From the IMG/VR virus record IMGVR_UViG_2537561875_000003: a DNA stretch of 64,000 bases, one strand, 5' to 3'. Shown piece by piece: positions 50,341 to 62,462 of this stretch (positions are counted from its first letter, which is position 1; each line of letters begins with the position of its first letter). Under the pieces are notes generated by a model, which was not told the DNA's origin, ran no database searches, and was given only the letters and a program-made list of their open reading frames with translations. The position numbers and the translations under genes were made by a program. This stretch comes from a virus. Its lineage: Duplodnaviria > Heunggongvirae > Uroviricota > Caudoviricetes.

Positions 50341-50876
50341 ATGACACGCTCCTTAACCCAGCCGTAGAGAAAATCCTCGTTGGCTTCGCGGCCCTCCGCC
50401 AGTTCGAGGTATCTGGCACCCTGGCTGCAGTTCAGCGCACGCAACAGAACCTGTTCACCCTCTTTCCCGCGGGCTGAAAGGTATCCCTTAAGCGCGGTGA
50501 TGGTTCGGGGGCCAATGGCGCCATCCGGGATCAGATCGGGGTATAGCTTCCCGCGCATGTTCAGAGCAGTGAGCCAGCGCTGGAAAAACTTACTGGCGAC
50601 GCTGGGCCCCATGTTCACGCCAGTGTCGCAAAGCTCATCCGCCAGTAACGTAGACAAACTCGCTACCTGGTCGAACCGGGGGCCGGTCCAGTAATCGCTC
50701 AGCAGGATTTGCTTTGCTGTTTCCCTTGGCAGGTTTCGCATATCACCGGTGTAGCCATGCGCACGGGCGGTGGTTTGCGTGATGCCCCAGCGGGTTGGCC
50801 CGCCTTTATCAGAGGGGTGATCGACATAACCACCCTCTTTGCCGAGGATCCCCTCGATAATCTGGTCTGCTGTCAT
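50337..50876 (-). CDS. Endolysin (GH108 N-terminal domain plus peptidoglycan-binding domain)
   Basis: GH108 motifs (EGGYVDHPSDKGGPTRWGIT). Confidence 0.75.
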   Translation of the reverse strand: MTADQIIEGILGKEGGYVDHPSDKGGPTRWGITQTTARAHGYTGDMRNLPRETAKQILLSDYWTGPRFDQVASLSTLLADELCDTGVNMGPSVASKFFQRWLTALNMRGKLYPDLIPDGAIGPRTITALKGYLSARGKEGEQVLLRALNCSQGARYLELAEGREANEDFLYGWVKERVM

Positions 50877-51184
50877 GGCGCCTTGACTCCGGTAATGCGC
50901 TCCCAGAAATAGGTCAAAGCAACAGAACCCATTGCCCCGCTAATCCCGGAAGTGGCCAGTATCATGTAAATGCTCAGTCCGCTTTCAATGCTCACCAGGC
51001 CAGCAATAACGCCGGTAAACCCTGAAACCACCATTTGGGCAAGAGCATTGATCAAGCTCCATGTTGCCTTGCTCTGCTTCACATCTATCAGGTAGCGGAC
51101 AAGTCCACCCCAGCAAGCAATAATCAGCAGAACCAGCCAGGACATCCCGGCAATGCTCTCTTTGTCTTGCATACGTTTAGCCAT
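50873..51184 (-). CDS. Holin
   Basis: 103 aa, about 3 TM, upstream of and coupled to the endolysin. Confidence 0.6.
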   Translation of the reverse strand: MAKRMQDKESIAGMSWLVLLIIACWGGLVRYLIDVKQSKATWSLINALAQMVVSGFTGVIAGLVSIESGLSIYMILATSGISGAMGSVALTYFWERITGVKAP

Positions 51185-51349
51185 AGTTACCGCCTCCGAT
51201 GAAAGATCGGGAAGCTGAGTGAATAAATGTGCGGGCTCTGCGCAAGCGCCCTGCGATTGGGTTATGAACCGTCGCAGGTGAGCCCTGTATGGGGAAAGGC
51301 CGCCAGATGGATTTACGACAAAGCACAGAGTGAGTGACGTTCTGGCGGC

Positions 51350-51385
51350 ACAAATAAAAAAGGCCGCGCTAATGCGCAGCCTGTT
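51350..51385 (-). terminator. Intrinsic terminator on the minus strand upstream of the lysis cassette (ggctgcgcattagcgcggcc plus U-run)
   Basis: Hairpin followed by TTTTTTATTTG on the minus strand. Confidence 0.4.
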
Positions 51386-51457
51386 ATTGTCGTGGGTAAT
51401 ATTTTTACGTCACTTAAGGAAAGCTACTACCGAAATAGCCAGTATGTAGGTGCCAGA

Positions 51458-51703
51458 TTACTTACCAAGTGCTTTTTTTACCTCTTCTGGCATGGAATCC
51501 CGAAGTTTCGTCGCTTCCAAAAAATATGATGTCAGCATTTTCATTACATCCAATTCCAGCATGCTTTCTTCACCGCCACGTCGAACCCTGGCAATAATCT
51601 CCTTTACCTGGGCCACAGGGGGAGCCACCGGAGCCATATGTTTAACCATTGCTTCTGCTACTATCTTTGCCTTTTGATTCGGATCTAATGGTTTATTTTC
51701 CAT
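51458..51703 (-). CDS. Hypothetical protein
   Basis: 81 aa. Confidence 0.3.
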   Translation of the reverse strand: MENKPLDPNQKAKIVAEAMVKHMAPVAPPVAQVKEIIARVRRGGEESMLELDVMKMLTSYFLEATKLRDSMPEEVKKALGK

Positions 51704-51899
51704 AACTGATATCTCCTGATCTGGGAGAGTTTGTTATAGCGCGTAATCTTCCCCCAGAAAAGCAAAAACCCCGCCGGTTGGCAGGGTTCAGAATCAGTTT
51801 CATTTGGATGTACGTATCCATGATTAGAAGCATACAGGACACTTTTATGCAAAGTCAACATTAACGTGCAAAAAAATGTCGCCATTTGCTCCGATCACA

Positions 51900-52682
51900 T
51901 TAGTAAGTCGTTGCCTTCTCGAATTCTACAGCCGCTTGTCGCTCACCCTTACGCAGCATGTCCACCAGCCCCTCATAGAACGGTTTCCAGTTGCGTGACC
52001 ACGAAGACTGATGGAGATCAGGGAGACGCTTCAGAATGGCGCGGTGAACCGTCGCTGAGGGTACAACAGAGAAGCCATTTCCAGAGCAGCGCTCACATGT
52101 TTTGAAAACCGGTGCGCCAAGTTCTTTGGTCGCTTTGCGATCTAACACCTCCCCTTTACCACCACACCTGCATCGCGCATGGATCACTTTCTTTCCTCCA
52201 CACACTCCACAGACCCTTTTCACCAGTTCATTTTTAATCTTTGGGGCCTTCACCTCGACACCGTCTGCATCGAAAATACCAGGGTGCTTAATTACATCTT
52301 CATGGCGGGAAATAAAGCCGGTACCGCTGCAGTTGTGACACGTTGCGCTGGTGGCCGCCGAACGTGAGTATTCCGCAAAGGCAAATTGCGCCAGCGTAAA
52401 CATGCAGCCTCCGAGCTCGTCACCAGCGGCTTTGCGGACATTTTTAGGAGCGTTTTTGATGGCAAACTGCGCCAGCGCTTGAACTGCGAGCTGTTCATCC
52501 GTTTTGCTGATACCAGCCTTTCCGAAGAAAGCGGCCAAGCCGAAGCGTGCCCTGCTGCTGGTCACACCGATCCCGGTCATAATGTCTGTGCCATTCAGGC
52601 GATTCGGCGATGTGCTTTTCACGTCGTCGCTGATATGCATCCCCTGCGGGCTAAAGTGTTTGAGGGAGGCTTCCAGTTTCAT
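51900..52682 (-). CDS. Putative late regulator in the Q position, with four CxxCxGxG (DnaJ-type) zinc-finger repeats
   Basis: CHNCSGTG, CGVCGGKK, CRCGGKG, CERCSGNG. Upstream of a candidate late promoter/terminator pair and the lysis genes. Confidence 0.4.
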   Translation of the reverse strand: MKLEASLKHFSPQGMHISDDVKSTSPNRLNGTDIMTGIGVTSSRARFGLAAFFGKAGISKTDEQLAVQALAQFAIKNAPKNVRKAAGDELGGCMFTLAQFAFAEYSRSAATSATCHNCSGTGFISRHEDVIKHPGIFDADGVEVKAPKIKNELVKRVCGVCGGKKVIHARCRCGGKGEVLDRKATKELGAPVFKTCERCSGNGFSVVPSATVHRAILKRLPDLHQSSWSRNWKPFYEGLVDMLRKGERQAAVEFEKATTY

Positions 52683-53155
52683 TCTTCGCACTCCCCGACC
52701 AGGTTCAAAATAATGCAATCAAACAGCGAATCCCGTTCCTCAAAATAGTCACATGCCAGTAACCACTTGCAGACTGTTAATGCTTCAGCCCGGGTAACAG
52801 GTTTCATGACGCACAAAAGGTCAGTGAGCCACCCACGCCGATCCCAGATAATCTGGACGTAGCCATCGCCATTTTGTGTTTTATACCTGTGACGAAGTAC
52901 AGATTCCCAATAATCCCATTCAATGGTTACATCGCTTAATGTCCAGGGAGAGAGGAGGATGTTTTTAAAACCTTTTATTTCTCTTACGCGAAGTTCTTCT
53001 GCCTCACGACTTAAGTTTTTTTCATCGGCCCAGTTTGCATAAATATGACTGAAGCACTCCATAACAAGACGCTCAGCATCAGTAATTTTCTCAGGCGAAA
53101 AGTCCTGTTCGATGGTGAAGAATTGGTTATGTTGCAGATTGTTATTGTTCATCAT
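52679..53155 (-). CDS. Hypothetical protein
   Basis: 158 aa, coupled. Confidence 0.35.
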   Translation of the reverse strand: MMNNNNLQHNQFFTIEQDFSPEKITDAERLVMECFSHIYANWADEKNLSREAEELRVREIKGFKNILLSPWTLSDVTIEWDYWESVLRHRYKTQNGDGYVQIIWDRRGWLTDLLCVMKPVTRAEALTVCKWLLACDYFEERDSLFDCIILNLVGECEE

Positions 53156-54114
53156 ACTGCCACCTTTTTATAGAAAACTTGTTCACGAACCTGATCGCCG
53201 TTCATAAGCATATCATTGAAATCTCCGTTATCCGGCCAGCGTATGCTGACTTTCACCAGGTCGTTTTTCGCCAGCAGGTTTGCGTGGGCGCACTCGAACG
53301 CCGCGGCATGTCCAGTTGCAGAGTGCTTGTCCATGTCGGCAAAAATAATCAGATGCTTCACACCCGCCGGTACCCGGAATTTCTTCATAAACCCGCTGTT
53401 GATTACCGCCCAGGTATTGACGCCATAAACCTGATTACAGGAGAGTGCTGTTTCGATACCTTCGGCGATGCCGATCGTCGTTGATACCGGAAACATGCGA
53501 ATGGCCACAGAGCGGGCGTGATCCAGATAGCTGTCCTCTTGAAGCGACTTAAGACGTTTGGCGCTATCAATATCTGCCTTCCTGTCGCCGTCCAGCAGCG
53601 TCTGGTGCAGGTAACAAAGCTCAGCTTTGTCATCGGTAGCCAGGGCATACAGAGCTTGATAAACGCGCCCCGCATGGCGTTGGCGGTCACAAAAACGGAT
53701 GCCTTCTGCCGGCAGGCGGCTTATCCCACGTTGCAGAAGGTAACCAGCCGCGCTAGTTCCCCTTAAATCGAGCAACTTTGAAAACTTACTAATGACTCGC
53801 TGGCGCTGCCGCGCCGCCGAACTGTTAGCAGGCACGTTGATGCGCTGATAGTTATTCCCGATGAGCTGGTCCACTTCTGCGCAGATGGCGGAAAAGCTTT
53901 TTGACTGGGTAAGGGTCAGCAGCTTCATACCGTCGCCGCTACCGCATACGCAAATCCATGTGCCCTGACCATCACGGTCATCTACGCGGAACTTCCCCCT
54001 CGCCTTACATACCGGACACTCACCTTTGTAATGGTGTTTCCCGGTGAAAGGAGGTAAGCCGTAATATTCAAAGATTTCAGCCCACCGGCCTTTTGCAGCT
54101 TCTGCTGTTTTCAT
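53152..54114 (-). CDS. DNA primase (zinc-ribbon plus TOPRIM)
   Basis: CPVCKARGKF...WICVCG zinc ribbon; TOPRIM acidic motifs (IIFADMD). Confidence 0.7.
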   Translation of the reverse strand: MKTAEAAKGRWAEIFEYYGLPPFTGKHHYKGECPVCKARGKFRVDDRDGQGTWICVCGSGDGMKLLTLTQSKSFSAICAEVDQLIGNNYQRINVPANSSAARQRQRVISKFSKLLDLRGTSAAGYLLQRGISRLPAEGIRFCDRQRHAGRVYQALYALATDDKAELCYLHQTLLDGDRKADIDSAKRLKSLQEDSYLDHARSVAIRMFPVSTTIGIAEGIETALSCNQVYGVNTWAVINSGFMKKFRVPAGVKHLIIFADMDKHSATGHAAAFECAHANLLAKNDLVKVSIRWPDNGDFNDMLMNGDQVREQVFYKKVAV

Positions 54115-54115
54115 A

Positions 54116-55774
54116 TCACTGACTCACTCTGTTTACGTTTTCCTGAAACTTTCGTTTTGCTTCGATAATTAATTGCCCATCGCTACCCTCAGGAGGCTCA
54201 TATTTGATACTGGCGCTCGGAGGTGGAAATAGATCCTGGTCAGGTTTCTTCCCCATCTGCTGCAGGCGTTCGCGGCGTTTAGCAAATTTGATAAGTTTGT
54301 GTTTGATGTGATTGCTGACCTCCGGTGTGATCTCCATTGGAAAGTCGCTTAAGCCGTTGGGCCATTCGCCGAATTTCTCCTGAAAGGTATGAGCACACCA
54401 GCCATCGCTGACAGGTTTCCCCTGCGCCGCACGATGACGCTGGTAAAACTTGATCTGACTCCACCAGGACTGCTTGTCGCTTTTGGTATAAACCGTTTCG
54501 TGCTTGCTCATTTTTTTGATGTTGCGGGTGCCGTCAGTCTCGACGTCCTGACCAACGAGCGGTTTAAATCCGCACTTTGGGCAGACGTAAACGCCGGATG
54601 GCTTCATGAAATGACATTCGGGGCATTCTTTCGGAAGTTTTTCTTCGCGTTCCTTAGTTGCGCCGGCAGCGGCCGCTTTCATGCCGTCGTTTTTGGATGG
54701 CAGATCGTCGTATTCGATGGAGTCAGGGAAGCCGAGGCGATGCACAGTGCCACTGTGATCAAAAATCAGGCAGGCATCTTTCCCGGGTGCAGTTCGCAGT
54801 CCGCGGCCAAGCGCCTGCAACCAGCGGATTTCACTCTTTGTCGGCCGGGCGTAGATAATGCAGCGAACATCGCTATCAAAACCGGCTACCAAAACACCAA
54901 CACTGACGATTATTTTTGTGGCGCCAGTCTCGAAGCGATGAATCATCACCTGCCGTTCTTCGTGGGGTGTTTCTGCGACCATGACCTCAGCATTAATACC
55001 CGCCTTGTTAAACTGCATGGTTACAAAGTTTGCGTGAGCCTTGTTAACGCAGAACGCCACCGTAGGAAGGTCACGACCATGACGAAGCCAGTTATCGACG
55101 ATATCGCCCACCAGGTCAGAACCGCACATGATTTCCGCCAGCTGGGACTCGTCGTAATCAGTACCGAACTCTATAGATGGCTTTGTTTCTACCCCGCTAA
55201 GATCTGGTTTTGTTGGGGCGAAAAATTCGTACTTACTGAGGTCACCACGCTGGATCAATTCGCCAATCGTCGTTGGCTTAATCAGGTGTTGATAGTAATG
55301 GCCCAGGAACGGCGCAAAAGGGGTACCAGATAAACCGATAACCTTCGCTTTTTTCTCCGCTGTGATCCGTTCGATTTCTTTCAGGATACGGCGTTTACGC
55401 AGGTGCGCCTCATCGACAATAAGCAGATCGATGTTTTTGGGAAATTCACGCCTAATGAGCGTGTCAGCACTCGCAATCTGGATCAGCAGATTAGGGTCGT
55501 AGTTCGGGTGATCACGCCAAATAAAACTAATCTGGTCTTCCGGCAACCCGTATTCTGTAAAGCGCTGGGCGGTCTGGTTAATCAGGATCGTATACGGGGC
55601 GACAAACAGAACACGCATACCACGACTGACCAGGCCGGAAGCGATAAACGCAGCCAGGCCTGTTTTTCCGCTTCCGGTCGGTGCGTAGACCATGAAGGAA
55701 TCGTGCGCCTTCCAGGTGCGCCGCAGCATGTTAAGCCCGCGTTCCTGTGCAAAGTTCGGTGTGATGTTAAGCAT
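54116..55774 (-). CDS. SF2 DEAD/DEAH-box helicase
   Basis: Walker A (APTGSGKT), DEAH box (LLIVDEAH), and a C-terminal zinc ribbon (CPECHFMKPSGVYVCPKCG). Confidence 0.8.
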   Translation of the reverse strand: MLNITPNFAQERGLNMLRRTWKAHDSFMVYAPTGSGKTGLAAFIASGLVSRGMRVLFVAPYTILINQTAQRFTEYGLPEDQISFIWRDHPNYDPNLLIQIASADTLIRREFPKNIDLLIVDEAHLRKRRILKEIERITAEKKAKVIGLSGTPFAPFLGHYYQHLIKPTTIGELIQRGDLSKYEFFAPTKPDLSGVETKPSIEFGTDYDESQLAEIMCGSDLVGDIVDNWLRHGRDLPTVAFCVNKAHANFVTMQFNKAGINAEVMVAETPHEERQVMIHRFETGATKIIVSVGVLVAGFDSDVRCIIYARPTKSEIRWLQALGRGLRTAPGKDACLIFDHSGTVHRLGFPDSIEYDDLPSKNDGMKAAAAGATKEREEKLPKECPECHFMKPSGVYVCPKCGFKPLVGQDVETDGTRNIKKMSKHETVYTKSDKQSWWSQIKFYQRHRAAQGKPVSDGWCAHTFQEKFGEWPNGLSDFPMEITPEVSNHIKHKLIKFAKRRERLQQMGKKPDQDLFPPPSASIKYEPPEGSDGQLIIEAKRKFQENVNRVSQ

Positions 55775-55940
55775 TGTCAGCCCTTTTTGAGTTCTACTTT
55801 TCCAGGAAGAAACCTTCCCTACCTCTTATCGGGATCCCGCGTACCAGTTTGCTAGTGCACCGCTCTTTTATGGCTCTGCCTTCAAGATCGGTACCTACTT
55901 AACCCATGTACCTGTCTATTGGAAAAGGACGCTATTCCTG

Positions 55941-55990
55941 CCCTAACTCCCAACTCCCCCCAAACCCCCCTCTTCCCTCTTCCCCATCCC
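55941..55990. repeat. Strongly strand-biased poly-C tract (G-rich on the minus strand; G-quadruplex candidate)
   Basis: ccctaactcccaactccccccaaacccccctcttccctcttccccatccc inside a 300-bp noncoding region. Confidence 0.6.
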
Positions 55991-56083
55991 ATGTACTCGC
56001 AATCTGGTACGCAGAACAAAAAACAGTCAAGGTGGTTACCCTGCTATCACCCGGCACCTTTAAGCCCGGTGACAATCGGATCG

Positions 56084-56368
56084 TTACCGTGATCCGGCCA
56101 GGGGTGGCTGGGTCGTATACCCCTGCAGTGCGCGTCCGTGCGCATCCACGAATCTGCGAAGCCTCACATTGGCTTCATGCCGAGCTCGGTTCTCCTGTCG
56201 GAATGAAACGGGCTCGGCGTTAAACTCAATTTCGTAAACCTCTGAATACTTCAGAGCTATTTTCCGGCGCAGTGATGAAGGCAATCTCAACAACTGCTCC
56301 TGTATCCACTGAGCATCCGCATGGCAGTAAAGCGCTGGCATTTCAACCCTGACGAAATCCTGTTGCAT
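56084..56368 (-). CDS. Hypothetical early protein
   Basis: 94 aa. Confidence 0.35.
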   Translation of the reverse strand: MQQDFVRVEMPALYCHADAQWIQEQLLRLPSSLRRKIALKYSEVYEIEFNAEPVSFRQENRARHEANVRLRRFVDAHGRALQGYTTQPPLAGSR

Positions 56369-56492
56369 TGCTTACTCTGCCCGCTTCGCAATGAGGTAAA
56401 AAATCCCGCTTATTGGGTCATACCTGATGCTGCGTGGCAGCAACTTCAGGAAGTAGCGCGGATCAGGCATAGCGGTTGACTGTTGTGACATG

Positions 56493-56726
56493 TCACACCT
56501 CTGCAATTCGTGGCATCCCATCAAGCTCGCTTGGATACAAGTCAGGGCGAACCTGATGAGGGGTAATGGCCCAGCCGACAAATTCGCAAAGTTTCAATAC
56601 AAAGCGAGCAGGGATTACAGACTTAGCAAACCACTGATTCACTGCCTGGGGAGTTACTCCCAAGCCTTGAGCAATCGCTCTTTGGGAAGTAATGGCACAC
56701 AATTTCACCCGAATCTCTTCGTTCAT
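56493..56726 (-). CDS. cro: Cro-like repressor (YdaS/Cro HTH)
   Basis: HTH (RAIAQGLGVTPQAVNQW); divergent from cI. Confidence 0.55.
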   Translation of the reverse strand: MNEEIRVKLCAITSQRAIAQGLGVTPQAVNQWFAKSVIPARFVLKLCEFVGWAITPHQVRPDLYPSELDGMPRIAEV

Positions 56727-56745
56727 AAATCACCATCAAGTTAAA

Positions 56746-56831
56746 CTTTATTTGAATGAGTCTATATCAAGATTTAATTAACATGCAAGAAGTAAAACCA
56801 TGCGTTAAACTTGAGATCAAGCATTGCTTTA
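56746..56831. promoter_or_regulatory. OR-type operators of prophage B (variants of TCAAGTTTAACTTGA)
   Basis: tcaagttaaacttta and gttaaacttgagatcaag lie between cro and cI. Confidence 0.45.
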
Positions 56832-56866
56832 GATAATGGCTTTAATGAAACTTTTGGAGAGATACA

Positions 56867-57541
56867 GTGGCCATGGCAAACATGATTCAAGAACTTCTGA
56901 AGGAAAAAGGGTGGAGTAAAGCCGAGCTGGCTCGTCAGTTAGGGGTTAGCACGCAGACGGTTGTCTACTGGACGAAGGGAGACACTGTCCCAAGGGGTAA
57001 GAGATTAGCCCAGCTTTCTGAAATCAGTGGATACCCACAATCCTGGTTTCTGGGTGAGGGACAACCCGCCACCTTCCCTGCGTCCGCTCAAAAAGGAGAT
57101 ACTGATAGCGTTAAATTCAAAGTATTAGATATTGAATTCAGTTGTGGTGATGGAGTTAGCGTGAAAAGTGACTTCATTGATGTGGTCCGCTCCATAGAGT
57201 TAGACCCCGAGTACGCCCGTCAAGTTGTAGGCAACAGACCCTTCAAGAACATTGAGATTGGCAATGCCAGGGGTGATAGCATGTCGCCAACAATAGCACC
57301 GGGTGATTTATTATTTCTAGATAAAACAATAACATACTTCGATGGTGACGGGATTTATGCTTTTTGTTTTGAAGGTGAATGTTATGTAAAGAGGCTGCAA
57401 AAAATAGGCAGCAAAATTGTAGTATTATCTGACAACTCGAATTACCAATCTTGGAGCATCGAGAAGGATGCCTTGGATATGCTCTACATCCAGTCAAAAG
57501 TTATCTCATCAGTTCCTTTCAACATTAACAGATTCGGTTAA
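56867..57541 (+). CDS. cI: CI repressor (HTH plus S24 peptidase)
   Basis: XRE HTH (WSKAELARQLGVSTQTVVYW) and S24 motifs (GDSMSPTI). Confidence 0.8.
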   Translation: MAMANMIQELLKEKGWSKAELARQLGVSTQTVVYWTKGDTVPRGKRLAQLSEISGYPQSWFLGEGQPATFPASAQKGDTDSVKFKVLDIEFSCGDGVSVKSDFIDVVRSIELDPEYARQVVGNRPFKNIEIGNARGDSMSPTIAPGDLLFLDKTITYFDGDGIYAFCFEGECYVKRLQKIGSKIVVLSDNSNYQSWSIEKDALDMLYIQSKVISSVPFNINRFG

Positions 57542-57552
57542 TTATTGATAGA

Positions 57553-57583
57553 CAACGGGCTTTTGCCCGTTCCTCCCTTTTAA
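57553..57583 (+). terminator. Terminator after cI (aacgggcttttgcccgtt)
   Basis: Hairpin followed by a T-rich stretch. Confidence 0.4.
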
Positions 57584-57606
57584 ATCTACCTATACCAAAA
57601 AAACAA

Positions 57607-57668
57607 TCAAGTTTAACTTGACTGCATAAAATCATAAAGCTAACCTCTCACTATCAAGTTTAACTTGA
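57607..57668. promoter_or_regulatory. OL-type operators of prophage B: two perfect 15-bp palindromes TCAAGTTTAACTTGA (57607-57621 and 57654-57668)
   Basis: Perfect palindromes spaced 47 bp apart, upstream of the first pL-side gene. Confidence 0.55.
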
Positions 57669-57703
57669 TTTAGTAAGCGCTCAATACTTGTGTGAGGTGA
57701 ACA

Positions 57704-58117
57704 ATGAAAACTCCAATCCAAATGCTTGAAGTGTTTGTATCAGACATAATAGAAAACACTGTTCTTCTGGAGGAGATCTATAAAAAAAGTAACGAGAATT
57801 ACGAAACAGATTGTTCTATAAACAGCCTAATTCGTTCAATGCAAAAGACCGTAGATAACATGAACGGATATATTAAGAGTCATATTAATTCAGTCAAACC
57901 CTGCATACCTGTAGCGGCCAGAAACGATCTGGCTGATGATATATTCGATGTGATTCTTACTGCTAAAAAACTTGAAGCACTCGCACAAACTTATAGTGAG
58001 TCTTTTTTTACTGACGAGGACAATGACAACCCCGCGTGCCATATGTCAGCTGTGATATTTGACTATGCTCGTGAACTTTGCACTGATCTTAAGGCTATCG
58101 AGAATAAAATAGGCTAA
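57704..58117 (+). CDS. AT-rich acidic hypothetical protein (first gene after OL)
   Basis: 137 aa; clearly AT-rich relative to its surroundings. Confidence 0.4.
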   Translation: MKTPIQMLEVFVSDIIENTVLLEEIYKKSNENYETDCSINSLIRSMQKTVDNMNGYIKSHINSVKPCIPVAARNDLADDIFDVILTAKKLEALAQTYSESFFTDEDNDNPACHMSAVIFDYARELCTDLKAIENKIG

Positions 58118-58299
58118 TTACGAAACCAGTTTAGAACGGCCTTGGGGTGCCGGGGGTTCTTGCCCCCTAAATATTGCGAGGTATTTGTTATGAGTTTCAT
58201 TATTGACCGCAACGCATATAAAACCGCCCTGCTTTATGCAGCTAACGGGCACGAAATAATAGCAGGCCTTTATCTGCGTAAAGCCTACGGGAGGTAATT

Positions 58300-58524
58300 A
58301 TGGGTATGCAGCGCCGCCAAGATATTCAGTGCGTCACCATTAAGGCTGAGCAACTTAACTTCCTTATGCAGACAATTTTCACACATCATAAGGACTTTGA
58401 CTGCCATCAACTTGATGGGGTTTTAGGTCTTGCATATGACCTTGCTGGCGAGGTCTATTCATGGATGGAAAAAGAGGAAAAGATTGTACAGCAAAATGAA
58501 GAACACAAAAGAAGGGGTAATTAG
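58300..58524 (+). CDS. Hypothetical protein
   Basis: 74 aa. Confidence 0.3.
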   Translation: MGMQRRQDIQCVTIKAEQLNFLMQTIFTHHKDFDCHQLDGVLGLAYDLAGEVYSWMEKEEKIVQQNEEHKRRGN

Positions 58525-58890
58525 ATGAGTAACTTAATTACTACCTATCGCCGCCGAATTTTAAAAGCAGCCTTGTTACGCCACCAGCGAAAGACTGGGA
58601 GTAGCTTACTTGTCATTAAGCTTAACAAGGGTGGGATTAGTACTATCGAATTAACTGAGATTCTTCTTGATGGATTGTTGCGGAAATTCGAGCGACTGGC
58701 GCTCGGTGAATACGGAAATGTGGAAGGTGTGAAAGTTCTTAAGGGAATTTACAGCAACTCTGTTGATGTTAATGGCAGCGGCGAATTCCTCACAGAAAGC
58801 GGGAAAGAGTTAATCGACGAGCTTATTTCTGAACTGGTGGAGTTCGTCAAAAAGCAGAAACCAGTTACTGCGGAGTCCGGCAATGAATAA
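58525..58890 (+). CDS. Hypothetical protein
   Basis: 121 aa. Confidence 0.35.
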   Translation: MSNLITTYRRRILKAALLRHQRKTGSSLLVIKLNKGGISTIELTEILLDGLLRKFERLALGEYGNVEGVKVLKGIYSNSVDVNGSGEFLTESGKELIDELISELVEFVKKQKPVTAESGNE

Positions 58891-59137
58891 CCAGCAAACA
58901 ATGCTCTATCAGGGTGTGCTGATCCCCCGCCCCGTGTTGAACGTGGATCTGCATGTCCTCCCTGATTTTACCGGGCGGGTAGTCGTGCACATCGAGAACG
59001 GGAGGGTGATATGCGACCGCCAGCTGTTCGACGACGAGCACATTTGCACACTGGCCACGTTTATCGAAATGGCGCGAGAAATGGAGCTGAGATTTGAGGA
59101 GGTAGCTGGTGGCACTGACAGCGATACGAATTCCTGA
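58883..59137 (+). CDS. Hypothetical protein
   Basis: 84 aa. Confidence 0.3.
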   Translation: MNNQQTMLYQGVLIPRPVLNVDLHVLPDFTGRVVVHIENGRVICDRQLFDDEHICTLATFIEMAREMELRFEEVAGGTDSDTNS

Positions 59138-59323
59138 GAGGGTTCACCTGCAGGCGCTGCAGGTCCTGCTGCGGTATCGGCGCCGGAGGATATTCCCGCG
59201 GCGAATGCGCCGCACCGGCTACCTCAGCCTGAAGGTTAACCCACGCTGGCGCCTGTTATCGAAAGACGATGGCCGGAACTGGGAAGTTATGAGTCATGAA
59301 ACCTATAACCGGGAGAAAGACAA

Positions 59324-59749
59324 ATGATCGACAACCGCACTGCCAGCGCTATTGATCTGGCATTACAGAAGCACCACACGCCAGTCGGCGACCTGTACGC
59401 CGCTATTCGTCACGGCCGCATGAAGCGTTGCTTTAGCCGGGATACCGCAATTCGTTACCTGGCGTTCTTCATGACCTCCCGAGCTTTTGGGCGTTCTGGT
59501 TTCAAGCAGCGTTATCCGGACGTGCAGGTAATTCATCCACTGAATCCAGAACTGAGTAGCTGGCAACGTGGCGCCGTGACCACTGAGTATTTCAACGCCC
59601 ACCAGCGCACCGTTCGCCGGCTGCGTCGCATCCTCGCCCGCAAAAGAGAAATGCAAAAGTGGTGCAAAAAGTGGGATGCCATGCACGACCGCTACGTGAA
59701 AGAGCGCGAAGAACTACAGGCCTGTAAGCCTGGAGGGCTGAGTCGATGA
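59324..59749 (+). CDS. Hypothetical basic protein
   Basis: 141 aa. Confidence 0.35.
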   Translation: MIDNRTASAIDLALQKHHTPVGDLYAAIRHGRMKRCFSRDTAIRYLAFFMTSRAFGRSGFKQRYPDVQVIHPLNPELSSWQRGAVTTEYFNAHQRTVRRLRRILARKREMQKWCKKWDAMHDRYVKEREELQACKPGGLSR

Positions 59750-59940
59750 TTGCTTACTTACGCGTTGTTCTATCGGTGGTGATTGTCGCCAGCGTTTATG
59801 GGCTGTTCGTTCCGATCCTCATTTCGATGAAGGACACGACAGCAGTTATATCCGGTTTTGCCCTGGCGATTCTGACCCCGCCGTGCATCTACGCCATTTG
59901 TAAGGGTCTTGCACTTACCGTAACGAAGGAAAAGAAATGA
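59746..59940 (+). CDS. Small 2-TM membrane protein coupled to the SPFH gene
   Basis: GGAGGG RBS; 64 aa with two hydrophobic helices; ATGA overlap with the next gene. Confidence 0.45.
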   Translation: MIAYLRVVLSVVIVASVYGLFVPILISMKDTTAVISGFALAILTPPCIYAICKGLALTVTKEKK

Positions 59941-60872
59941 AAAATGCAATTATGGCTTCAATTATCGCACTCTCTGCCATCGGCCTTGTTGGTTGCGATC
60001 GAGTTGAGCCCGGCAACGTGGGTATCAAGGTGAATAAGTTGGGTGACGATAAAGGCGTTGGTGAAGTCGTCGGAGTCGGCCGCTACTGGACCGGCTGGAA
60101 TACCGAGGTTTATATCTTTCCGACCTTCAAGCAGATGAAAACGTATGATGACGCTTTCAACTTCCAGATGAGCGATGGCACCACCATCGGCTACCACATC
60201 GGGGTCGCGTACAAGGTTGATCCGACCAAAGTTACAACTGTTTTTCAGACCTACCGTAAAGGCGTGGACGACATCACCGACACCGATCTGCGGCAGAAAA
60301 TTGCTGACGCCCTTAATCGTCTCGCAAGCCGGATGAGCACCGATAAATTCATTGACGGCGGGAAAGCTGAGCTGCTTGAAAACGCACTGAAAGAGATCCA
60401 GTCCGATATGGGGCCGGTTGGTATCCAGGTGATCAGCCTTTCTTACGTCGGCCGTCCGGAATACCCGCCGACAGTGATCGAAAGCATCAACGCCAAAGTT
60501 ACGGCAAATCAGAAAACGCTGCAGCGTGAACAGGAAGTTAAACAACGTGAAGCTGAAGCCAACATGTTGCGAGCCGAAGCCGATGGACAGGCGGATGCAA
60601 AGCTGAAACTGGCTGAAGCAGAAGCAAAGTCTATCCAGATCCGTGGGCAAGCCATGCGTGAGAATCCTGAAGTACTGCAACTGGAGGCCATCAACAAATG
60701 GAATGGCACCCTGCCCCAGTACATGACCAGCGGAACAAACACCCCGTTTATCCAGGTTAAATGCTCCACCAGCCCGGCGACAAGCCGGGCACATATGAGA
60801 GGTTCGCAATGCTTCAGAATATGCTTAACCCGGAACCAACCTCAACAGGGATCCGGTCTGGAAACCGGGTGA
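59937..60872 (+). CDS. SPFH/band-7 (flotillin/HflK-like) lipoprotein
   Basis: Lipobox LVGC and an SPFH core (GNVGIKVNKLGD...YHIGVAYKV) followed by a coiled-coil Ala/Glu-rich region. Confidence 0.65.
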   Translation: MKNAIMASIIALSAIGLVGCDRVEPGNVGIKVNKLGDDKGVGEVVGVGRYWTGWNTEVYIFPTFKQMKTYDDAFNFQMSDGTTIGYHIGVAYKVDPTKVTTVFQTYRKGVDDITDTDLRQKIADALNRLASRMSTDKFIDGGKAELLENALKEIQSDMGPVGIQVISLSYVGRPEYPPTVIESINAKVTANQKTLQREQEVKQREAEANMLRAEADGQADAKLKLAEAEAKSIQIRGQAMRENPEVLQLEAINKWNGTLPQYMTSGTNTPFIQVKCSTSPATSRAHMRGSQCFRICLTRNQPQQGSGLETG

Positions 60873-61387
60873 TAGGCTACTCCGCTGCTATTCGCCTGCT
60901 GGATAACGGTCGCTATGACAAACACCTCGCCGAAGGAATGGAAATTCTGGCCTGCATCATGGAAGCGGTAGAAAGCTGCTGGATCACGCTTAACATCGAG
61001 AAGCAAATCATCGTCTGGCGCTGGTTGCTTGCCGCAGTATTCATTACTGAGGAACTGGAGAAAAACGGAACTGTCGACGTTCCGAATGATACTGGCGGTG
61101 TTGATACTGCTGTTATCTATTCCAGCAAGCATGGCGCCATTAGCGTTTACCCAGGGCCGGAACGCTTTGCGCTCGCAAACCACATTGAGGCCGGCGCCAT
61201 TGAGAAGTACGGACCTGATGTTGGCCCGCAGCTGGCGCTGCGGATGTATCAGGACATGGTTGTTGCTGATGAAGAACACGGCTTCAGGTTGTCGGCTATG
61301 GGCCGGGAAGGTTTCAACCTTCTGCATGACGGCTTTATAGAACAAATCCAGACCGAAGGTGTGCCAGAAGCACCGATTATGCATTGA
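60809..61387 (+). CDS. Hypothetical protein
   Basis: About 192 aa. Confidence 0.35.
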   Translation: MLQNMLNPEPTSTGIRSGNRVIGYSAAIRLLDNGRYDKHLAEGMEILACIMEAVESCWITLNIEKQIIVWRWLLAAVFITEELEKNGTVDVPNDTGGVDTAVIYSSKHGAISVYPGPERFALANHIEAGAIEKYGPDVGPQLALRMYQDMVVADEEHGFRLSAMGREGFNLLHDGFIEQIQTEGVPEAPIMH

Positions 61388-62118
61388 GGGGAATGATGAT
61401 GAATAACTTGATCACCAACAAACCATCCATGACCAGCCTTGAGATCGCCGAGCTGGTAGAGAAACGCCACGACAACGTGAAACGTACCATTGTGACACTG
61501 GCTTCAAAGGACGTTATCCGGTCTCCTCAAATTGAGGTTCTCGAAAGAATCAATAACTTAGGATTTGCCGTCAATGATGAGGTTTACAAATTCGCAGGTG
61601 AAGAAGGAAAACGCGACAGCATCATTGTGGTCGCGCAACTTAGCCCCGAGTTTACCGCCAGACTGGTAGATCGCTGGAAGGAACTGGAAGAAGAACGAAC
61701 CCGGCCAAAATCACAGGCAGAGCTTATTGCGGAAATGGCCCTGCTGAATGTTGAGCAGGAGCGCCGCCTGTATCAGGTAGAAGAACAGGTCGAGGCTGTA
61801 GCTGAAACGGTTGAGAACATTAAGCGTGGCAATATGCGGGCCGGGTATGTCGGTTATCGCCAGGTGGTCGCAAAAAGCGGTATGACCGATGCCAAGTGCC
61901 GAAACCTTGTTAACGCATACCGTATTCCGACCGATACACACGAGTTCATGACCCCTGACGGCCTGCTCTCCCGCAGGGCTATTGTGGAACTTGAGCCGTT
62001 CATGAAGGCATTCCGCCAGATGATGGCAGAAGCCGAGCCCCGCGGCACCCGCTGGTACCACCCGAAGATGGGACTATTTCAGGCAATCGGATGGGAGGAA
62101 AAACATTGTGAAGATTGA
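61384..62118 (+). CDS. Rha-family phage regulatory protein
   Basis: N-terminal pRha motif (MTSLEIAELVEKRHDNVKRTI). Confidence 0.6.
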   Translation: MRGMMMNNLITNKPSMTSLEIAELVEKRHDNVKRTIVTLASKDVIRSPQIEVLERINNLGFAVNDEVYKFAGEEGKRDSIIVVAQLSPEFTARLVDRWKELEEERTRPKSQAELIAEMALLNVEQERRLYQVEEQVEAVAETVENIKRGNMRAGYVGYRQVVAKSGMTDAKCRNLVNAYRIPTDTHEFMTPDGLLSRRAIVELEPFMKAFRQMMAEAEPRGTRWYHPKMGLFQAIGWEEKHCED

Positions 62119-62329: not shown

Positions 62330-62462
62330 TGGACTGGCCAACAGCGTTTTGCACCGTCGGTTGTGCGTTTGCCATTGCCTGGTGCTTAAGGATCTAATCG
62401 ATGAATAGTGAATTTGAATTGTGGCGCCACTGTCGTGGCCTGAAAGTGGTGTGAGGTTGAAA

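What the first reader, a model, noticed from the sequence alone, without database searches (positions are those of the whole stretch)
55775..56083. 300-bp noncoding region upstream of the helicase gene with a 50-nt poly-C/poly-G strand-asymmetric tract (G4 candidate); possible origin or regulatory element of prophage B
On the minus (transcribed) strand, 55941-55990 reads GGGATGGGGAAGAGGGAAGAGGGGGGTTTGGGGGGAGTTGGGAGTTAGGG, with seven G-tracts of three or more. Such tracts are rare in enterobacterial phages. It lies between the cro-proximal small genes and the helicase/primase module, where a replication origin would be expected.
Basis: seen in the sequence. Interest (0 to 1): 0.5.

Follow-up and report, generated by a model that had tools for sequence, protein, structure and literature searches.

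The report
Conserved G-rich element before phage helicase
The odd G-rich stretch is real and is the invariant heart of a roughly 310-base noncoding element that hundreds of temperate phages of enteric bacteria, including Shiga-toxin phages, keep just upstream of their helicase-primase replication genes; it is most likely part of their still unmapped replication origin, but that is inferred, not shown.

Summary
Window 55941-55990 has 32 C and no G on the + strand. It is the most strand-skewed 50-mer, the only canonical G4 motif and the most R-loop-favourable stretch in the 64 kb.

It is not an isolated oddity. It is the core of a conserved noncoding module (55775-56083, read on the minus strand) between a small phrog_852 gene and an SF2 helicase / Toprim primase module of the "Eru1" type. 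An element-blind sample found it upstream of 71 of 74 helicase homologues, always on the helicase strand. Hosts include Klebsiella, Cronobacter, Salmonella (Fels-1), E. coli Stx2a phages, Yersinia and Serratia.

Nearly invariant parts are a polypurine run, G6-N3-G6, CUUUUCCA and CAUNGGUUARGUAG. An upstream hairpin with the loop UUAAAGGU shows strong strand-specific covariation. No ORF, Rfam family, iteron array or DnaA box is present.

Two of the three helicase loci that lack the element (a related pair) carry a RepL-like initiator with repeats in the same slot. The 15-mer G6TAAG6 also recurs beside iteron-like repeats inside initiator genes of unrelated phages.

Best reading (about 0.4): it is the origin region of this replicon, with the G tract as an R-loop/G4-prone opening or priming zone. 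Main rival (about 0.3): a structured RNA leader. Nothing here is experimentally tested.

The parts
56084..56368 (-). Upstream gene, 94 aa, PHROG family 852, unknown function. It has an Arg-rich helix (RQENRARHEANVRLRRF) and sits directly 5' of the element in almost all loci.
   Evidence: ORF list and translation. phrog_852 match at E 3e-38. No Pfam, NCBIfam or PDB match. The same family lies upstream in 169 of 176 loci. The AF2 model is poor, pLDDT 57, three helices.
56048..56071 (-). M1 hairpin: stem CACCGGGC/GCCGGGTG around the conserved 8-nt loop UUAAAGGU.
   Evidence: Loop located at 56056-56063. Across 86 distinct family variants the stem is 90.4% paired. There are 129 cells with changes on both sides, against 33 in shuffles; 0 of 500 shuffles reach this, and slid controls give 22-48% paired. 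There are 64 G-U cells against 9 A-C cells, so the structure is on the sense strand. It is present in 132 of 142 distinct elements and duplicated in 80.
56018..56043 (-). Terminator-like hairpin CAGGGUAACCACCUUG followed by ACUGUUUUUU. It is not conserved family-wide.
   Evidence: Consensus scan. A T5+ run at this position occurs in only 47 of 142 distinct elements.
55992..56012 (-). 5' arm (M2) of a 21-nt inverted repeat that brackets the G tract. It contains two GTAC motifs (GCGTACCAG...GAGTAC).
   Evidence: It is the top inverted repeat of the 5-kb replication region: arms 55839-55859 and 55992-56012, 86% complementary, 132 nt apart. Both strands' centroid folds close it. Family-wide, the GTAC cores are conserved but there is no covariation beyond conservation.
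55941..55990 (-). The reported G tract. It holds a 21-nt all-purine run (55965-55985) ending in G6 (55965-55970), a TTT spacer (55962-55964), a second G6 (55956-55961), then GGG runs.
   Evidence: In the family the runs are 6+6 in 116 of 142 distinct elements. The spacer is TAA in 104 and TTT in 16. The purine run is 20-21 nt in 93. C makes up 2.5% of the tract in 24 representatives.
55895..55987 (-). Conserved core of the element (G tract through the M4 motif); this is the part that aligns between distant family members.
   Evidence: blastn of the window against IMG/VR loci aligns query positions 134-226, which is 55895-55987. Against ENT39118 the core is 86% identical, versus 71% for the helicase gene and 61% for the phrog_852 gene. 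An nhmmer profile of the wider core region (alignment columns 150-262 of the 24 representatives) finds it in 195 of 227 fetched loci.
55920..55927 (-). Invariant CUUUUCCA motif.
   Evidence: Invariant in the 24-representative alignment. It was used as an anchor in the genome-contig scan, which returned 21 species.
55895..55908 (-). M4 motif CAUGGGUUAAGUAG (family consensus CAUNGGUUARGUAG). It is a conserved sequence, not a helix.
   Evidence: Nearly invariant. Its left and right flanks recombine freely between subtypes, so the GGTAC/GTACC pairing seen in the window is not supported.
55839..55859 (-). 3' arm (M6) of the 21-nt inverted repeat (GCACTAGCAAACTGGTACGC).
55797..55812 (-). M7 motif UUUCUUCCUGGAAAAG just before the helicase ribosome-binding site. 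It is conserved wherever the helicase follows the element directly.
   Evidence: Alignment columns 361-380 with invariant TGGAA. It is replaced by the start of a phrog_1347 gene in the Fels-1, KPP5665-2, phi467 and PA2 types.
54116..55774 (-). SF2 helicase, 552 aa, of the ResIII/DEAD/Helicase_C type, distantly like RadD and UvsW. It is 66-67% identical to the helicase of the Eru1-type Stx2a phages.
   Evidence: Pfam, PHROG 16, partial NCBIfam RadD match. tblastn gives 66-67% identity to Stx2a phages and PA2, and about 25% to cyanophage 'uvsW' helicases. Eru1A is described in PMC8044961.
53152..54114 (-). Primase, 320 aa (zinc ribbon + DUF7146 + Toprim).
   Evidence: Pfam and PHROG 510.
56737..56749 (.). 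Operator-like palindrome between the cro-like and cI-like genes. It marks the early promoter region from which the minus-strand operon, and so the element, would be transcribed (inferred).
   Evidence: CAAGTTTAACTTG-type sites at 56737, 57608 and 57655. cro-like gene at 56493-56726 (-) and S24 repressor at 56867-57541 (+).

Best explanation
The gap is a conserved cis-acting element of an 'Eru1-type' phage replication module (phrog_852 gene, element, optional phrog_1347 gene, SF2 helicase, Toprim primase). It is most likely the module's replication origin region.

Proposed mechanism (inferred). After derepression, early transcription from the cro-side promoter runs through the element on the minus strand. 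The 21-nt polypurine run and the paired G6 runs lie on the non-template strand. The nascent purine-rich RNA would therefore form an unusually stable RNA-DNA hybrid (R-loop), possibly locked by G-quadruplexes that use the RNA and/or the displaced DNA. This resembles the mitochondrial CSB II site and, more loosely, ColE1 RNA II and the T4 R-loop origins. The result is an opened duplex and perhaps a primer without a classical iteron-binding initiator. The phage SF2 helicase, whose relatives act on R-loops and branched DNA, and the primase would then take over. The conserved single-strand motifs and hairpins (M1, CUUUUCCA, CAUNGGUUARGUAG, GTAC palindromes) on the same strand would act as loading or recognition signals.

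Shown: the existence, conservation, linkage, strand polarity and composition of the element. Inferred: origin function, R-loop/G4 formation, and the roles of the motifs.
For: (1) The tract is the extreme of the window for G4 propensity and for hybrid-versus-duplex stability, in the orientation of the early operon.

(2) The element is tightly linked to the replication genes. It is present upstream and co-oriented in 71 of 74 helicase homologues sampled without regard to the element. It occurs in 21 species of Enterobacterales genomes. It is also in Eru1-type Stx2a phages.

(3) Purifying selection on the core is stronger than on the neighbouring genes in one comparison: 86% against 71% and 61%. 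G6-N3-G6 is nearly invariant and C is excluded at 2.5%.

(4) It is the only sizeable noncoding stretch in the module. There are no iteron arrays inside the helicase or primase genes.

(5) Complementary distribution. In loci L221 and L222, which lack the element, the same slot after the phrog_852 gene holds a RepL-like winged-helix protein. It scores 27.2 bits on PF05732, above the 20.3 cut-off, and has weak PHROG 'replication initiation protein' hits. In L222 the noncoding stretch before that gene, which was the one examined, carries two 28-nt palindrome-bearing repeats.

(6) The exact 15-mer G6TAAG6 recurs in unrelated viral contigs next to iteron-like tandem repeats. It lies inside HTH_36-type initiator genes followed by DnaB, and is read in three different frames there, so it is conserved as DNA. 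Replication-type genes lie within 2.5 kb in 22 of 99 such loci, against 3 of 63 and 4 of 120 for permuted-spacer controls.

(7) The helicase belongs to the SF2 branch that includes RadD-like and UvsW-like enzymes.

(8) The origin of Eru1 phages is not defined in the papers that describe them (PMC8044961, PMC8951638). The precedent for paired G runs driving R-loop/hybrid-G4 priming is in PMC3488243 and PMC4176368.
Against: There is no experimental or coverage evidence for initiation here.

There are no iterons, no AT-rich unwinding region (GC 0.46-0.54) and no DnaA box.

The best-supported structure (M1) shows G-U-tolerant, strand-specific covariation. That is typical of a functional transcript, although displaced single-stranded DNA has the same sequence.

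The element lies in a 5' leader, where regulatory RNAs are common.

A three-tier G4 is not conserved in the Fels-1 subtype.

In the HTH_36 initiator contexts the G strand is the template strand of the gene, the opposite polarity to this window. If the 15-mer has one common role, that role cannot depend on a G-rich transcript.

The complementary-distribution argument rests on two closely related loci. A third (L224) has an uncharacterised protein in the slot instead.

The nearest-neighbour parameters used were recalled from memory.
Confidence: 0.4

Rival explanations
1. Structured RNA leader. The element acts in the early transcript itself, not as DNA. It would control expression of the downstream replication and late-regulator genes. 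Possible modes are processive antitermination in these N-less phages (put-like, or boxB-like with the Arg-rich phrog_852 protein binding the M1 loop), protection of a long untranslated stretch from Rho (a C-poor tract), or translational or stability control of the helicase mRNA.
For: M1 has a conserved loop, covarying stems and a 64:9 excess of G-U over A-C, which is the signature of a transcript or single strand. It is often duplicated. The element lies in the 5' UTR of the helicase or of the phrog_1347 gene. Some subtypes have a terminator-like hairpin plus U run just after M1. Eru1 phages lack N, cII and cIII homologues (PMC8044961). The gene immediately upstream encodes a small Arg-rich helical protein of unknown function. 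The M7 motif abuts the helicase ribosome-binding site. C is nearly absent from the tract, which would disfavour Rho loading (established knowledge of rut sites).
Against: There is no second copy of the UUAAAGGU hairpin or of the G tract in the leftward (pL-side) operon, as a nut/put pair would need. No Rfam family matches. Only M1 shows covariation; the GTAC arms and M4 flanks do not. About 50 nt of invariant G runs have no pyrimidine partner in the RNA. The terminator-like feature is present in only 47 of 142 elements. The M1-M6 part is kept unchanged when a different gene follows, so it is not tied to the helicase ribosome-binding site. This reading does not explain the RepL-like replacement in the same slot or the recurrence of G6TAAG6 at iteron-bearing sites.
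Confidence: 0.3
2. A double-stranded DNA regulatory or architectural site that is not the origin. Examples are a binding platform for a phage or host protein (GTAC palindromes, TTAAAGG/TTAAG repeats) that represses or times replication-gene expression, or a GC-rich barrier element.
For: GTAC occurs 5 times in 309 nt against 0.6 expected. The four GTAC arms are conserved in sequence without covariation, as protein-binding half-sites would be. M4 and CUUUUCCA are conserved as sequences, not helices. TTAAAGG-like motifs recur in M1, M4 and M5.
Against: The strand-specific G-U pattern of M1 argues for a single-stranded form. Subtypes without GTAC (L048 and L138 types) keep the G tract and M4. No cognate DNA-binding protein is identified. 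The extreme purine/pyrimidine asymmetry is unusual for operator-type sites.
Confidence: 0.1
3. A trans-acting noncoding RNA processed from the early transcript, for example a protein sponge. The six GGA motifs suggest CsrA-type binding. Alternatively it could be an anti-defence RNA.
For: The element is long, conserved and noncoding, folds better than shuffles (z -2.3), and has several GGA motifs in the tract.
Against: No promoter or conserved terminator delimits it. No Rfam match. The invariant features are G6 runs rather than GGA in hairpin loops. Its strict position inside the replication module is not required for a trans-acting RNA.
Confidence: 0.07
4. Chance or decaying sequence: a compositional oddity or the remnant of a lost gene.
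For: Other family members carry an extra gene (phrog_1347) just downstream, so the region is a variable slot.
Against: The core is conserved across genera, at higher identity than the flanking genes in one comparison. G6-N3-G6 is nearly invariant. M1 covaries.
Confidence: 0.02

Closest known systems
Human mitochondrial CSB II (G6AG8) at the leading-strand origin
   Same: Two long G runs separated by 1-3 nt on the non-template strand downstream of a promoter. This is the minimal layout for an RNA-DNA hybrid G-quadruplex that stabilises an R-loop and yields the replication primer (PMC3488243, PMC4176368). The window has G6-TTT-G6 and the family has G6-TAA-G6, in that orientation.
   Different: There is no homology. 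This is a bacterial phage context with its own SF2 helicase and primase. R-loop, G4 and primer formation are untested here. E. coli-type RNA polymerase has not been shown to respond in this way. The phage element has a 20-nt polypurine run and many further conserved motifs that CSB II lacks.
ColE1 RNA II pre-primer origin, and T4 oriF/ori(uvsY) R-loop origins
   Same: Initiation without an iteron-binding initiator. A structured transcript forms a persistent hybrid at the origin, and G-rich RNA pairing with C-rich template is important for ColE1 (established knowledge). The helicase family here includes UvsW-like enzymes, which act on T4 origin R-loops (annotations plus established knowledge).
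   Different: No sequence or Rfam similarity. There is no antisense RNA I analogue. No promoter was found immediately upstream. The hybrid-prone stretch is only about 50 nt.
Lambda ori inside gene O, and the iteron origins of HTH_36/DnaD-like initiators
   Same: The position is next to the replication genes of a lambdoid early operon, and there is strong purine/pyrimidine strand asymmetry. The same 15-mer G6TAAG6 lies beside iteron-like repeats in the linker of HTH_36 initiator genes of unrelated phages.
   Different: The window has no iterons, no AT-rich unwinding region and no initiator gene of that type. The polarity of the G strand relative to transcription is opposite.
Lambda nutR boxB / HK022 put antitermination RNA sites
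   Same: M1 is a short hairpin with a conserved loop and covarying stem in the early transcript, next to a gene for a small Arg-rich protein, in phages that lack N (PMC8044961).
   Different: There is no boxA, no second site in the opposite early operon and no sequence similarity. HK022 was not among the 15 phage records that matched the region. The G tract has no counterpart in nut or put.
Eru1 replication unit of Stx phages (TL-2011c, PA2)
   Same: The same gene module: SF2 DEAH helicase, Toprim primase and a small third gene. The helicase is 66-67% identical. A diverged copy of the element sits between the phrog_852 and phrog_1347 genes of PA2.
   Different: The published descriptions cover the proteins only. 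No origin or noncoding element is reported. PA2 has G5-TAA-G5 and an extra gene before the helicase.

Membership tests
Canonical intramolecular G-quadruplex motif | Four or more runs of at least 3 G separated by loops of 1-7 nt | tested here: met
   One match in the window, at 55965-55990 on the minus strand and none elsewhere. G4Hunter score 2.36. ViennaRNA with the G4 option places a quadruplex in the tract.
Canonical intramolecular G-quadruplex motif | The motif is conserved across the homologous elements, as expected if the G4 is the selected feature | tested here: inconclusive
   Most subtypes keep 5-7 runs. The Fels-1, KPP5665-2 and phi467 subtype keeps only GAGAGGAGGGGAGGGGGAGGAG, with two runs of 3 or more. 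The L125 subtype keeps G6-TAA-G6-AGTT-G3. What is invariant is a pair of long G runs, which suits a bimolecular or hybrid G4.
Canonical intramolecular G-quadruplex motif | Folding into a quadruplex in vitro or in vivo | not testable with these tools
   Needs CD or thioflavin T assays, K+/Li+ dependence, and in-cell probing.
Transcript-primed / R-loop replication origin (ColE1, mitochondrial OH/CSB II, T4 oriF) | G-rich or purine-rich non-template strand downstream of an active promoter | tested here: met
   The tract is on the sense strand of the cro-helicase operon. It has the best hybrid-versus-duplex free energy of the window, -22.2 kcal/mol. Promoter activity itself is inferred from the operator-like sites.
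Transcript-primed / R-loop replication origin (ColE1, mitochondrial OH/CSB II, T4 oriF) | A persistent RNA-DNA hybrid and an RNA-to-DNA transition at the site | not testable with these tools
   Needs DRIP/S9.6, bisulfite footprinting and mapping of nascent-strand 5' ends.
Transcript-primed / R-loop replication origin (ColE1, mitochondrial OH/CSB II, T4 oriF) | The fragment is required in cis and sufficient for replication when the replication proteins are supplied | not testable with these tools
   There is only indirect support: linkage in 71 of 74 loci and replacement by a RepL-like gene in the same slot in two related loci, with repeats examined in L222.
Iteron-type origin (lambda ori, P4 ori, plasmid Rep origins) | An array of three or more direct repeats that bind the initiator | tested here: not met
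   No direct-repeat family in or near the gap. The only tandem repeat is the 7-nt CCCTCTT x2.4 inside the tract.
Iteron-type origin (lambda ori, P4 ori, plasmid Rep origins) | An adjacent AT-rich unwinding element, often with DnaA boxes | tested here: not met
   GC is 0.46-0.54 across the gap. There is no DnaA box with up to 1 mismatch in 55701-56400.
Lambda-type nut site (boxA + boxB) | A short hairpin with a conserved loop and a variable, covarying stem in the early transcript | tested here: met
   M1: 90.4% paired, 129 double-change cells against 33 in shuffles, 0 of 500 shuffles reaching this; 64 G-U against 9 A-C cells.
Lambda-type nut site (boxA + boxB) | A matching site in the other early operon (nutL) | tested here: not met
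   TTAAAGGT occurs only 3 times in 64 kb. The other two copies are far away, at 22290 and 27515, and none is near the pL-side operators.
Lambda-type nut site (boxA + boxB) | A cognate N-like arginine-rich RNA-binding protein | tested here: inconclusive
   The adjacent 94-aa protein has an Arg-rich helix but no detectable homology to N. The model confidence is low.
Any curated RNA family (Rfam 15) | A covariance-model match at or near the gathering score | tested here: not met
   No match at E of 1 or below in 55775-56083. The only real hit in 50000-64000 is a tRNA at 62721-62794.
Eru1-type phage replication module | SF2 DEAD/DEAH helicase followed by a Toprim primase, in place of lambda O and P | tested here: met
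   Pfam and PHROG assignments. 66-67% amino-acid identity to the helicases of the Stx2a phages and PA2. The gene order matches PMC8044961.

The most novel reading that the evidence does not exclude
A pair of G6 runs (G6-TAA-G6) is a general DNA-level initiation signal used by unrelated phage replicons. One group is the initiator-less SF2-helicase/primase (Eru1-type) modules, where it sits in a structured noncoding element. The other is the HTH_36/DnaD-like initiator plus DnaB modules, where it sits beside the iterons inside the initiator gene, whatever the reading frame. It would act through a four-stranded or hybrid structure that nucleates or bounds duplex opening and primer hand-off. That would be a bacterial-virus counterpart of mitochondrial CSB II.
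Probability: 0.15. Interest if true: 0.85.

Novelty: new variant of a known kind. Interest (0 to 1): 0.62.

Why it matters
Eru1-type replication modules are carried by the Stx2a phages of highly virulent EHEC outbreak strains (O103:H25 in 2006, O104:H4 in 2011; PMC8951638) and by many Klebsiella, Salmonella, Cronobacter and Yersinia prophages. Their origin and mode of initiation are unknown.

This work defines a precise, testable candidate. It is a roughly 310-nt conserved element with an invariant paired-G6 core. The analysis also names the mutations, orientation swaps and trans-complementation tests that would decide its role.

If it is an R-loop/G4-assisted origin, it would be a bacterial-virus example of transcription-primed initiation served by an SF2 helicase rather than an iteron-binding initiator. 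It would also link replication onset directly to derepression of the early promoter, which bears on the unstable lysogeny and toxin output of these phages. If it is instead an RNA leader, it would be a new antitermination or regulatory RNA family in N-less lambdoid phages.

Either way it is an unannotated conserved element. Some GenBank records currently cover it with a probably spurious ORF on the opposite strand.

Tried and rejected
- Rfam search at permissive E-values: nothing in the gap.
- Sigma-70 promoter scan: none found. A TTGACT-N18-CAGATT site seen by eye in the window is not conserved in other subtypes.
- Coding potential: no PHROG hits for the four ORFs in the gap. The ORFs are not conserved in ENT39118, and G-run length variation breaks any frame.
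- Helix around the M4 motif (GGTAC/GTACC in the window): rejected, because the flanks recombine freely.
- Local versus long-range pairing of the GTAC arms: none of four pairing models exceeds the between-sequence shuffles. Only one position shows T-A to C-G covariation, probably a single lineage event. The L048 subtype shows complementary loops (GUCUAAAU/AUUUAGAC) but too little variation to test.
- M5 hairpin: heterogeneous, with some covariation only in the ENT and Fels subtypes.
- nutL-like second hairpin: absent.
- DnaA boxes: none. GATC enrichment: weak, 3 against 1.2 expected.
- E. coli genomes by megablast with the Klebsiella-type sequence: no hit. The PA2-type copy had to be used instead.
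- Structure prediction of the 94-aa neighbour without an alignment: pLDDT 57, so no fold search was run.
- 'Plasmid' hits of 37-41 kb turned out to be the phage genome itself, not a minimal replicon.
- Test of whether G6TAAG6 is specially enriched: not shown. Only the context differs between them.
- Literature searches for this motif, for an Eru1 origin, and for phage G4 origins found nothing specific.
Full report
**1. The observation.**
The + strand of 55941-55990 reads CCCTAACTCCCAACTCCCCCCAAACCCCCCTCTTCCCTCTTCCCCATCCC.

The gap 55775-56083 lies between the stop of a 94-aa ORF (56084-56368, minus strand) and the ATG of a 552-aa helicase gene (54116-55774, minus strand).

The tract is the most G/C-skewed 50-mer of the 64-kb window. 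It is also the only canonical (G3+N1-7)x4 motif on either strand. Its G4Hunter score is 2.36, against a maximum of 1.36 for the opposite polarity.

Using nearest-neighbour parameters that I recalled from Sugimoto 1995 and SantaLucia 1998, an RNA with minus-strand sense would gain 22.2 kcal/mol by pairing with its template rather than leaving the duplex closed. That is the best 50-mer on either strand (z = -5.4; the next best is -16.1).

**2. Context.**
The neighbourhood is a lambdoid immunity and early region:
- An S24/HTH repressor (56867-57541, +).
- A cro-like HTH gene (56493-56726, -).
- The 94-aa gene (PHROG 852, unknown function).
- The gap.
- An SF2 helicase (ResIII/DEAD/Helicase_C).
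- A zinc-ribbon/Toprim primase (53152-54114).
- A 158-aa protein.
- A Q-type antiterminator.

Operator-like palindromes CAAGTTTAACTTG flank the repressor gene at 56737, 57608 and 57655. The minus-strand operon that contains the element is therefore the early operon released on induction. That step is an inference.

The phage is a Klebsiella prophage. Six Klebsiella phage records match the region at 94.5% identity. Twelve Klebsiella 'plasmid' records also match; those of 37-42 kb are evidently the phage genome itself, and the one examined is.

The gene set is the 'Eru1' replication unit described for Stx2a phages, in which an SF2 helicase, a Toprim primase and a third small gene replace lambda O and P. 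These phages have no N, cII or cIII (PMC8044961, read). The helicase here is 66-67% identical to those of the Stx2a phages and of phage PA2. Neither Eru paper mentions an origin or a noncoding element.

**3. The tract is the core of a conserved element.**
Cronobacter phage ENT39118 has a homologous stretch in the same place, with its G runs preserved.

A pattern scan of IMG/VR and a blastn comparison showed that the part shared by distant relatives corresponds to window 55895-55987. A second pattern, built on the motifs downstream of the G tract, found the element in one genome each of 21 species. These include Yersinia, Serratia, Citrobacter, Enterobacter, Atlantibacter, Pseudescherichia, Trabulsiella and Superficieibacter.

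To avoid circularity I fetched 80 loci using the helicase protein alone. I then searched their upstream DNA with an nhmmer profile of the core. Of the 74 loci with at least 700 nt of upstream sequence, 71 have the element. It is always on the helicase strand. The core ends either about 106-124 nt before the ATG, or about 430-660 nt before it when an extra small gene (PHROG 1347) intervenes.

PA2 carries a diverged copy (GAGGAGGGGGTAAGGGGGTGGAG ... ACATAGGTTAGGTAGATC). That copy occurs in 134 of 5426 complete E. coli genomes and is unannotated in them.

The gene upstream belongs to PHROG 852 in 169 of 176 loci.

Between the window and ENT39118 the core is 86% identical, whereas the helicase gene is 71% and the upstream gene 61% identical. 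For Fels-1 and PA2 the core is only about as conserved as the genes.

**4. Anatomy (transcribed strand, 5' to 3').**
- **M1.** One or two hairpins with the loop UUAAAGGU, at 56048-56071 in the window.
- **A T-rich stretch.** In the window it forms a terminator-like hairpin with a U run (56018-56043). A T5+ run is present in only 47 of 142 distinct elements.
- **M2.** A GTAC-containing arm (55992-56012).
- **The G tract.**
- **CUUUUCCA** (55920-55927).
- **M4.** The motif CAUNGGUUARGUAG (55895-55908).
- **M5.** A variable hairpin or A-rich segment.
- **M6.** A second GTAC arm (55839-55859).
- **M7.** UUCUUCCUGGAARAG just before the helicase ribosome-binding site.

Within the tract the two long G runs are 6+6 in 116 of 142 distinct elements. 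The spacer is TAA in 104 and TTT in 16; the window has TTT. The uninterrupted purine run ending in the first G6 is 20-21 nt in 93. C makes up 2.5% of the tract across 24 representatives.

The Fels-1, KPP5665-2 and phi467 subtype keeps only GAGAGGAGGGGAGGGGGAGGAG. A three-tier intramolecular G4 is therefore not universal. What is universal is a polypurine stretch with two long G runs.

**5. What folds and on which strand.**
M1 is well supported. Across 86 distinct variants, 90.4% of cells pair. There are 129 cells with changes on both sides, against 33 expected. None of 500 shuffles reaches this, and slid controls give 22-48% pairing. G-U cells outnumber A-C cells 64 to 9, so the helix forms on the sense strand, either in the transcript or in displaced single-stranded DNA of the same polarity.

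M2 and M6 form the strongest inverted repeat of the 5-kb replication region: 21 nt, 86% complementary, 132 nt apart. The centroid folds of both strands close it and leave the G/C tract unpaired (z = -2.3 for the sense strand and -3.2 for the antisense strand).

Across the family, only the GTAC cores of these arms are conserved. None of four pairing models beats shuffles. I cannot tell a closing helix from paired protein-binding palindromes.

The apparent stem around M4 in the window is not supported, because its flanks recombine freely between subtypes.

No ORF in the gap is conserved or matches PHROGs. No Rfam family matches.

**6. Evidence bearing on function.**

*For an origin:*
- The element is the only substantial noncoding DNA in the module. 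There are no iteron arrays inside the replication genes.
- It is linked to this helicase family.
- Three helicase loci lack it, and they are informative. L221 and L222 keep the PHROG 852 gene. In place of the element, L222, which was examined in detail, has a noncoding stretch with two 28-nt repeats that contain TGTCCGG...CCGGACA palindromes. Both loci then have a 172-178-aa winged-helix protein. This protein matches Pfam RepL above its gathering score (27.2 against 20.3 bits) and matches, weakly, PHROG families annotated as replication initiation proteins. L224 has an uncharacterised 312-aa protein in the slot. So the slot can hold either this element or a classical initiator with its repeats.
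- The exact 15-mer GGGGGGTAAGGGGGG occurs in at least 99 viral contigs outside this family. Many show a C5-6 run 2-4 nt upstream, then a pyrimidine-rich stretch, then tandem repeats of 6-13 nt downstream.
- In ten of these loci, profile searches place the motif inside an ORF with an HTH_36-like N-terminal domain. Three of the ORFs tested against Pfam score above the PF13730 cut-off. About thirty further ORFs of similar size also contain the motif but were not classified. The motif lies antisense in the proline-rich linker of these ORFs. Eleven of the 99 non-family loci have a DnaB gene near the motif.
- Among all the ORFs that contain the motif antisense, it is read in three different frames (PPLPP, PPYPP, TPLTP). 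It is therefore conserved as DNA, not as peptide.
- Replication-type genes (DnaB, initiator, primase-helicase, SSB) lie within 2.5 kb in 22 of 99 such loci. For the permuted-spacer controls the figures are 3 of 63 (G6AATG6) and 4 of 120 (G6ATAG6). The initiator queries came from the TAA set. The DnaB comparison alone is 11 of 99 against 5 of 183.

*Against an origin, or for an RNA role:*
- There is no AT-rich unwinding region, no DnaA box, and only weak GATC enrichment.
- The one proven structure tolerates G-U pairs.
- The element is a 5' leader.
- Some subtypes have a terminator-like feature after M1.
- These phages lack N, and the adjacent gene encodes a small Arg-rich protein. A boxB-like or put-like antitermination role for M1 is therefore conceivable. 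However, no second site exists on the pL side.
- In the HTH_36 initiator contexts the G strand is the template strand, the opposite of the window. A single shared role for the 15-mer cannot rest on a G-rich transcript.
- G6-N3-G6 pairs are in general frequent in viral contigs.

**7. Most likely mechanism.**
I rate 'origin region of the Eru1-type replicon' at about 0.4. In this model, early transcription through the element places a polypurine/G6-N3-G6 sequence in the nascent RNA and on the displaced strand. The hybrid is exceptionally stable and may be locked by RNA, DNA or hybrid quadruplexes. This has been shown for the G6AG8 block CSB II at the mitochondrial origin (PMC3488243, PMC4176368). 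The opened region, and possibly the RNA 3' end, then serves as the entry point for the phage SF2 helicase and primase. Relatives of that helicase include RadD-like and UvsW-like enzymes acting on branched DNA and R-loops. The sense-strand hairpins and motifs would act as recognition signals.

Every step after 'the sequence is there, conserved, linked and oriented this way' is inference.

The main rival, a structured RNA leader or antitermination element, I rate at about 0.3. A duplex-DNA regulatory site gets about 0.1, a trans-acting RNA about 0.07, and no function about 0.02.

**8. Comparison and novelty.**
The element works most like transcript-primed R-loop origins (CSB II, ColE1 RNA II, T4 oriF). 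It shares no sequence with them, and none of their defining biochemical features could be tested. It fails the tests for an iteron origin. It meets the sequence definition of a G4 motif in this window but not in all relatives. It matches no Rfam family.

I found no description of it in the searched literature. I therefore file it as a new variant of a known kind, a candidate origin of an unusual type. An open possibility is that paired G6 runs are a wider, unrecognised feature of phage origins.

**9. Limits.**
The collection scans were cut at 120 rows. The related sequences are phylogenetically non-independent. The complementary-distribution argument rests on two related loci. The thermodynamic parameters were recalled from memory. 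No transcript, hybrid, G4 or replication data exist for this element.

Noticed in passing
IMG/VR loci L228-L334 (e.g. L263 9552-9566, L283 9962-9976, L324, L319, L242, L312): The exact 15-mer GGGGGGTAAGGGGGG occurs in about 100 viral contigs unrelated to this family. It often has a C5-6 run 2-4 nt upstream, followed by a pyrimidine-rich stretch and tandem iteron-like repeats. In ten loci it lies antisense in the Pro-rich linker of HTH_36-like initiator ORFs, and DnaB genes lie nearby in eleven loci. Across all ORFs that contain it, it is read in three different frames.
   Followed up: partly
IMG/VR loci L228, L233, L239, L277, L280, L315 (also L246, L268): In another phage group the same 15-mer sits exactly at the predicted +1 of a consensus sigma-70 promoter (TTGACA-17 nt-CATAAA-A-G6TAAG6). 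It is followed by TTCTCTTGTTAAAACAG and a small HTH protein gene. Its function is unknown.
   Followed up: no
L222 2200-3008; L221 1814-2350: The helicase homologues that lack the G element have a RepL-like winged-helix gene in the same slot. In L222 that gene is preceded by two 28-nt repeats with TGTCCGG..CCGGACA palindromes. L221 additionally has an HNH endonuclease gene inserted before the helicase.
   Followed up: partly
window 55906-56223 (+); MK416019.1 protein QBP07862.1: Several GenBank phage records annotate a 'hypothetical protein' on the opposite strand that runs through the C-rich tract and antisense to the phrog_852 gene. It has no PHROG match and is not conserved in ENT39118, so it is probably a spurious call.
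   Followed up: partly
window 56084-56368 (-): The PHROG 852 protein (94 aa) is part of the module in 169 of 176 loci and is kept even when the G element is replaced. It has a conserved Arg-rich helix (FRQENRARHEANVRLRRFV) and no known domain. It is a candidate partner of the M1 hairpin or of the origin.
   Followed up: partly
L004 about 3071-3140 (ENT39118 type; alignment columns 470-540): In the ENT-type elements a mini-ORF of about 19 codons (MKTTSQNYYLITAGSAQCS) with its own GAGGGGG ribosome-binding site overlaps the helicase start. It follows a GGCTGGC/GCCAGCC hairpin and may be a leader peptide or a translational-coupling device. It is absent from the window.
   Followed up: no
window 62721-62794 (-): A tRNA gene (Rfam tRNA, 71 bits; the anticodon loop reads CUUCUAA, so probably tRNA-Arg UCU) lies near the end of the window. 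It may be the prophage attachment site.
   Followed up: no
PLSDB records NZ_CP076549.1, NZ_AP024758.1, NZ_CP095237.1 and others (37-42 kb): Klebsiella pneumoniae 'plasmids' that are in fact this phage's genome, with the same cI-cro-element-helicase region. This suggests the prophage is often caught as a free episome in assemblies.
   Followed up: partly
window 55841, 55891, 55908, 55993, 56007: GTAC occurs five times in the 309-nt gap against 0.6 expected, and it is conserved at four positions across most subtypes. No covariation was found and no known GTAC-specific factor could be assigned.
   Followed up: partly
window about 27947-27990 (+): This is the only other place in the window where the 25-nt G4Hunter score reaches 1.5 in absolute value. 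It is a C-rich stretch (CCCCGCC...CACACACCCCGCCACGCCAC). It was not examined.
   Followed up: no
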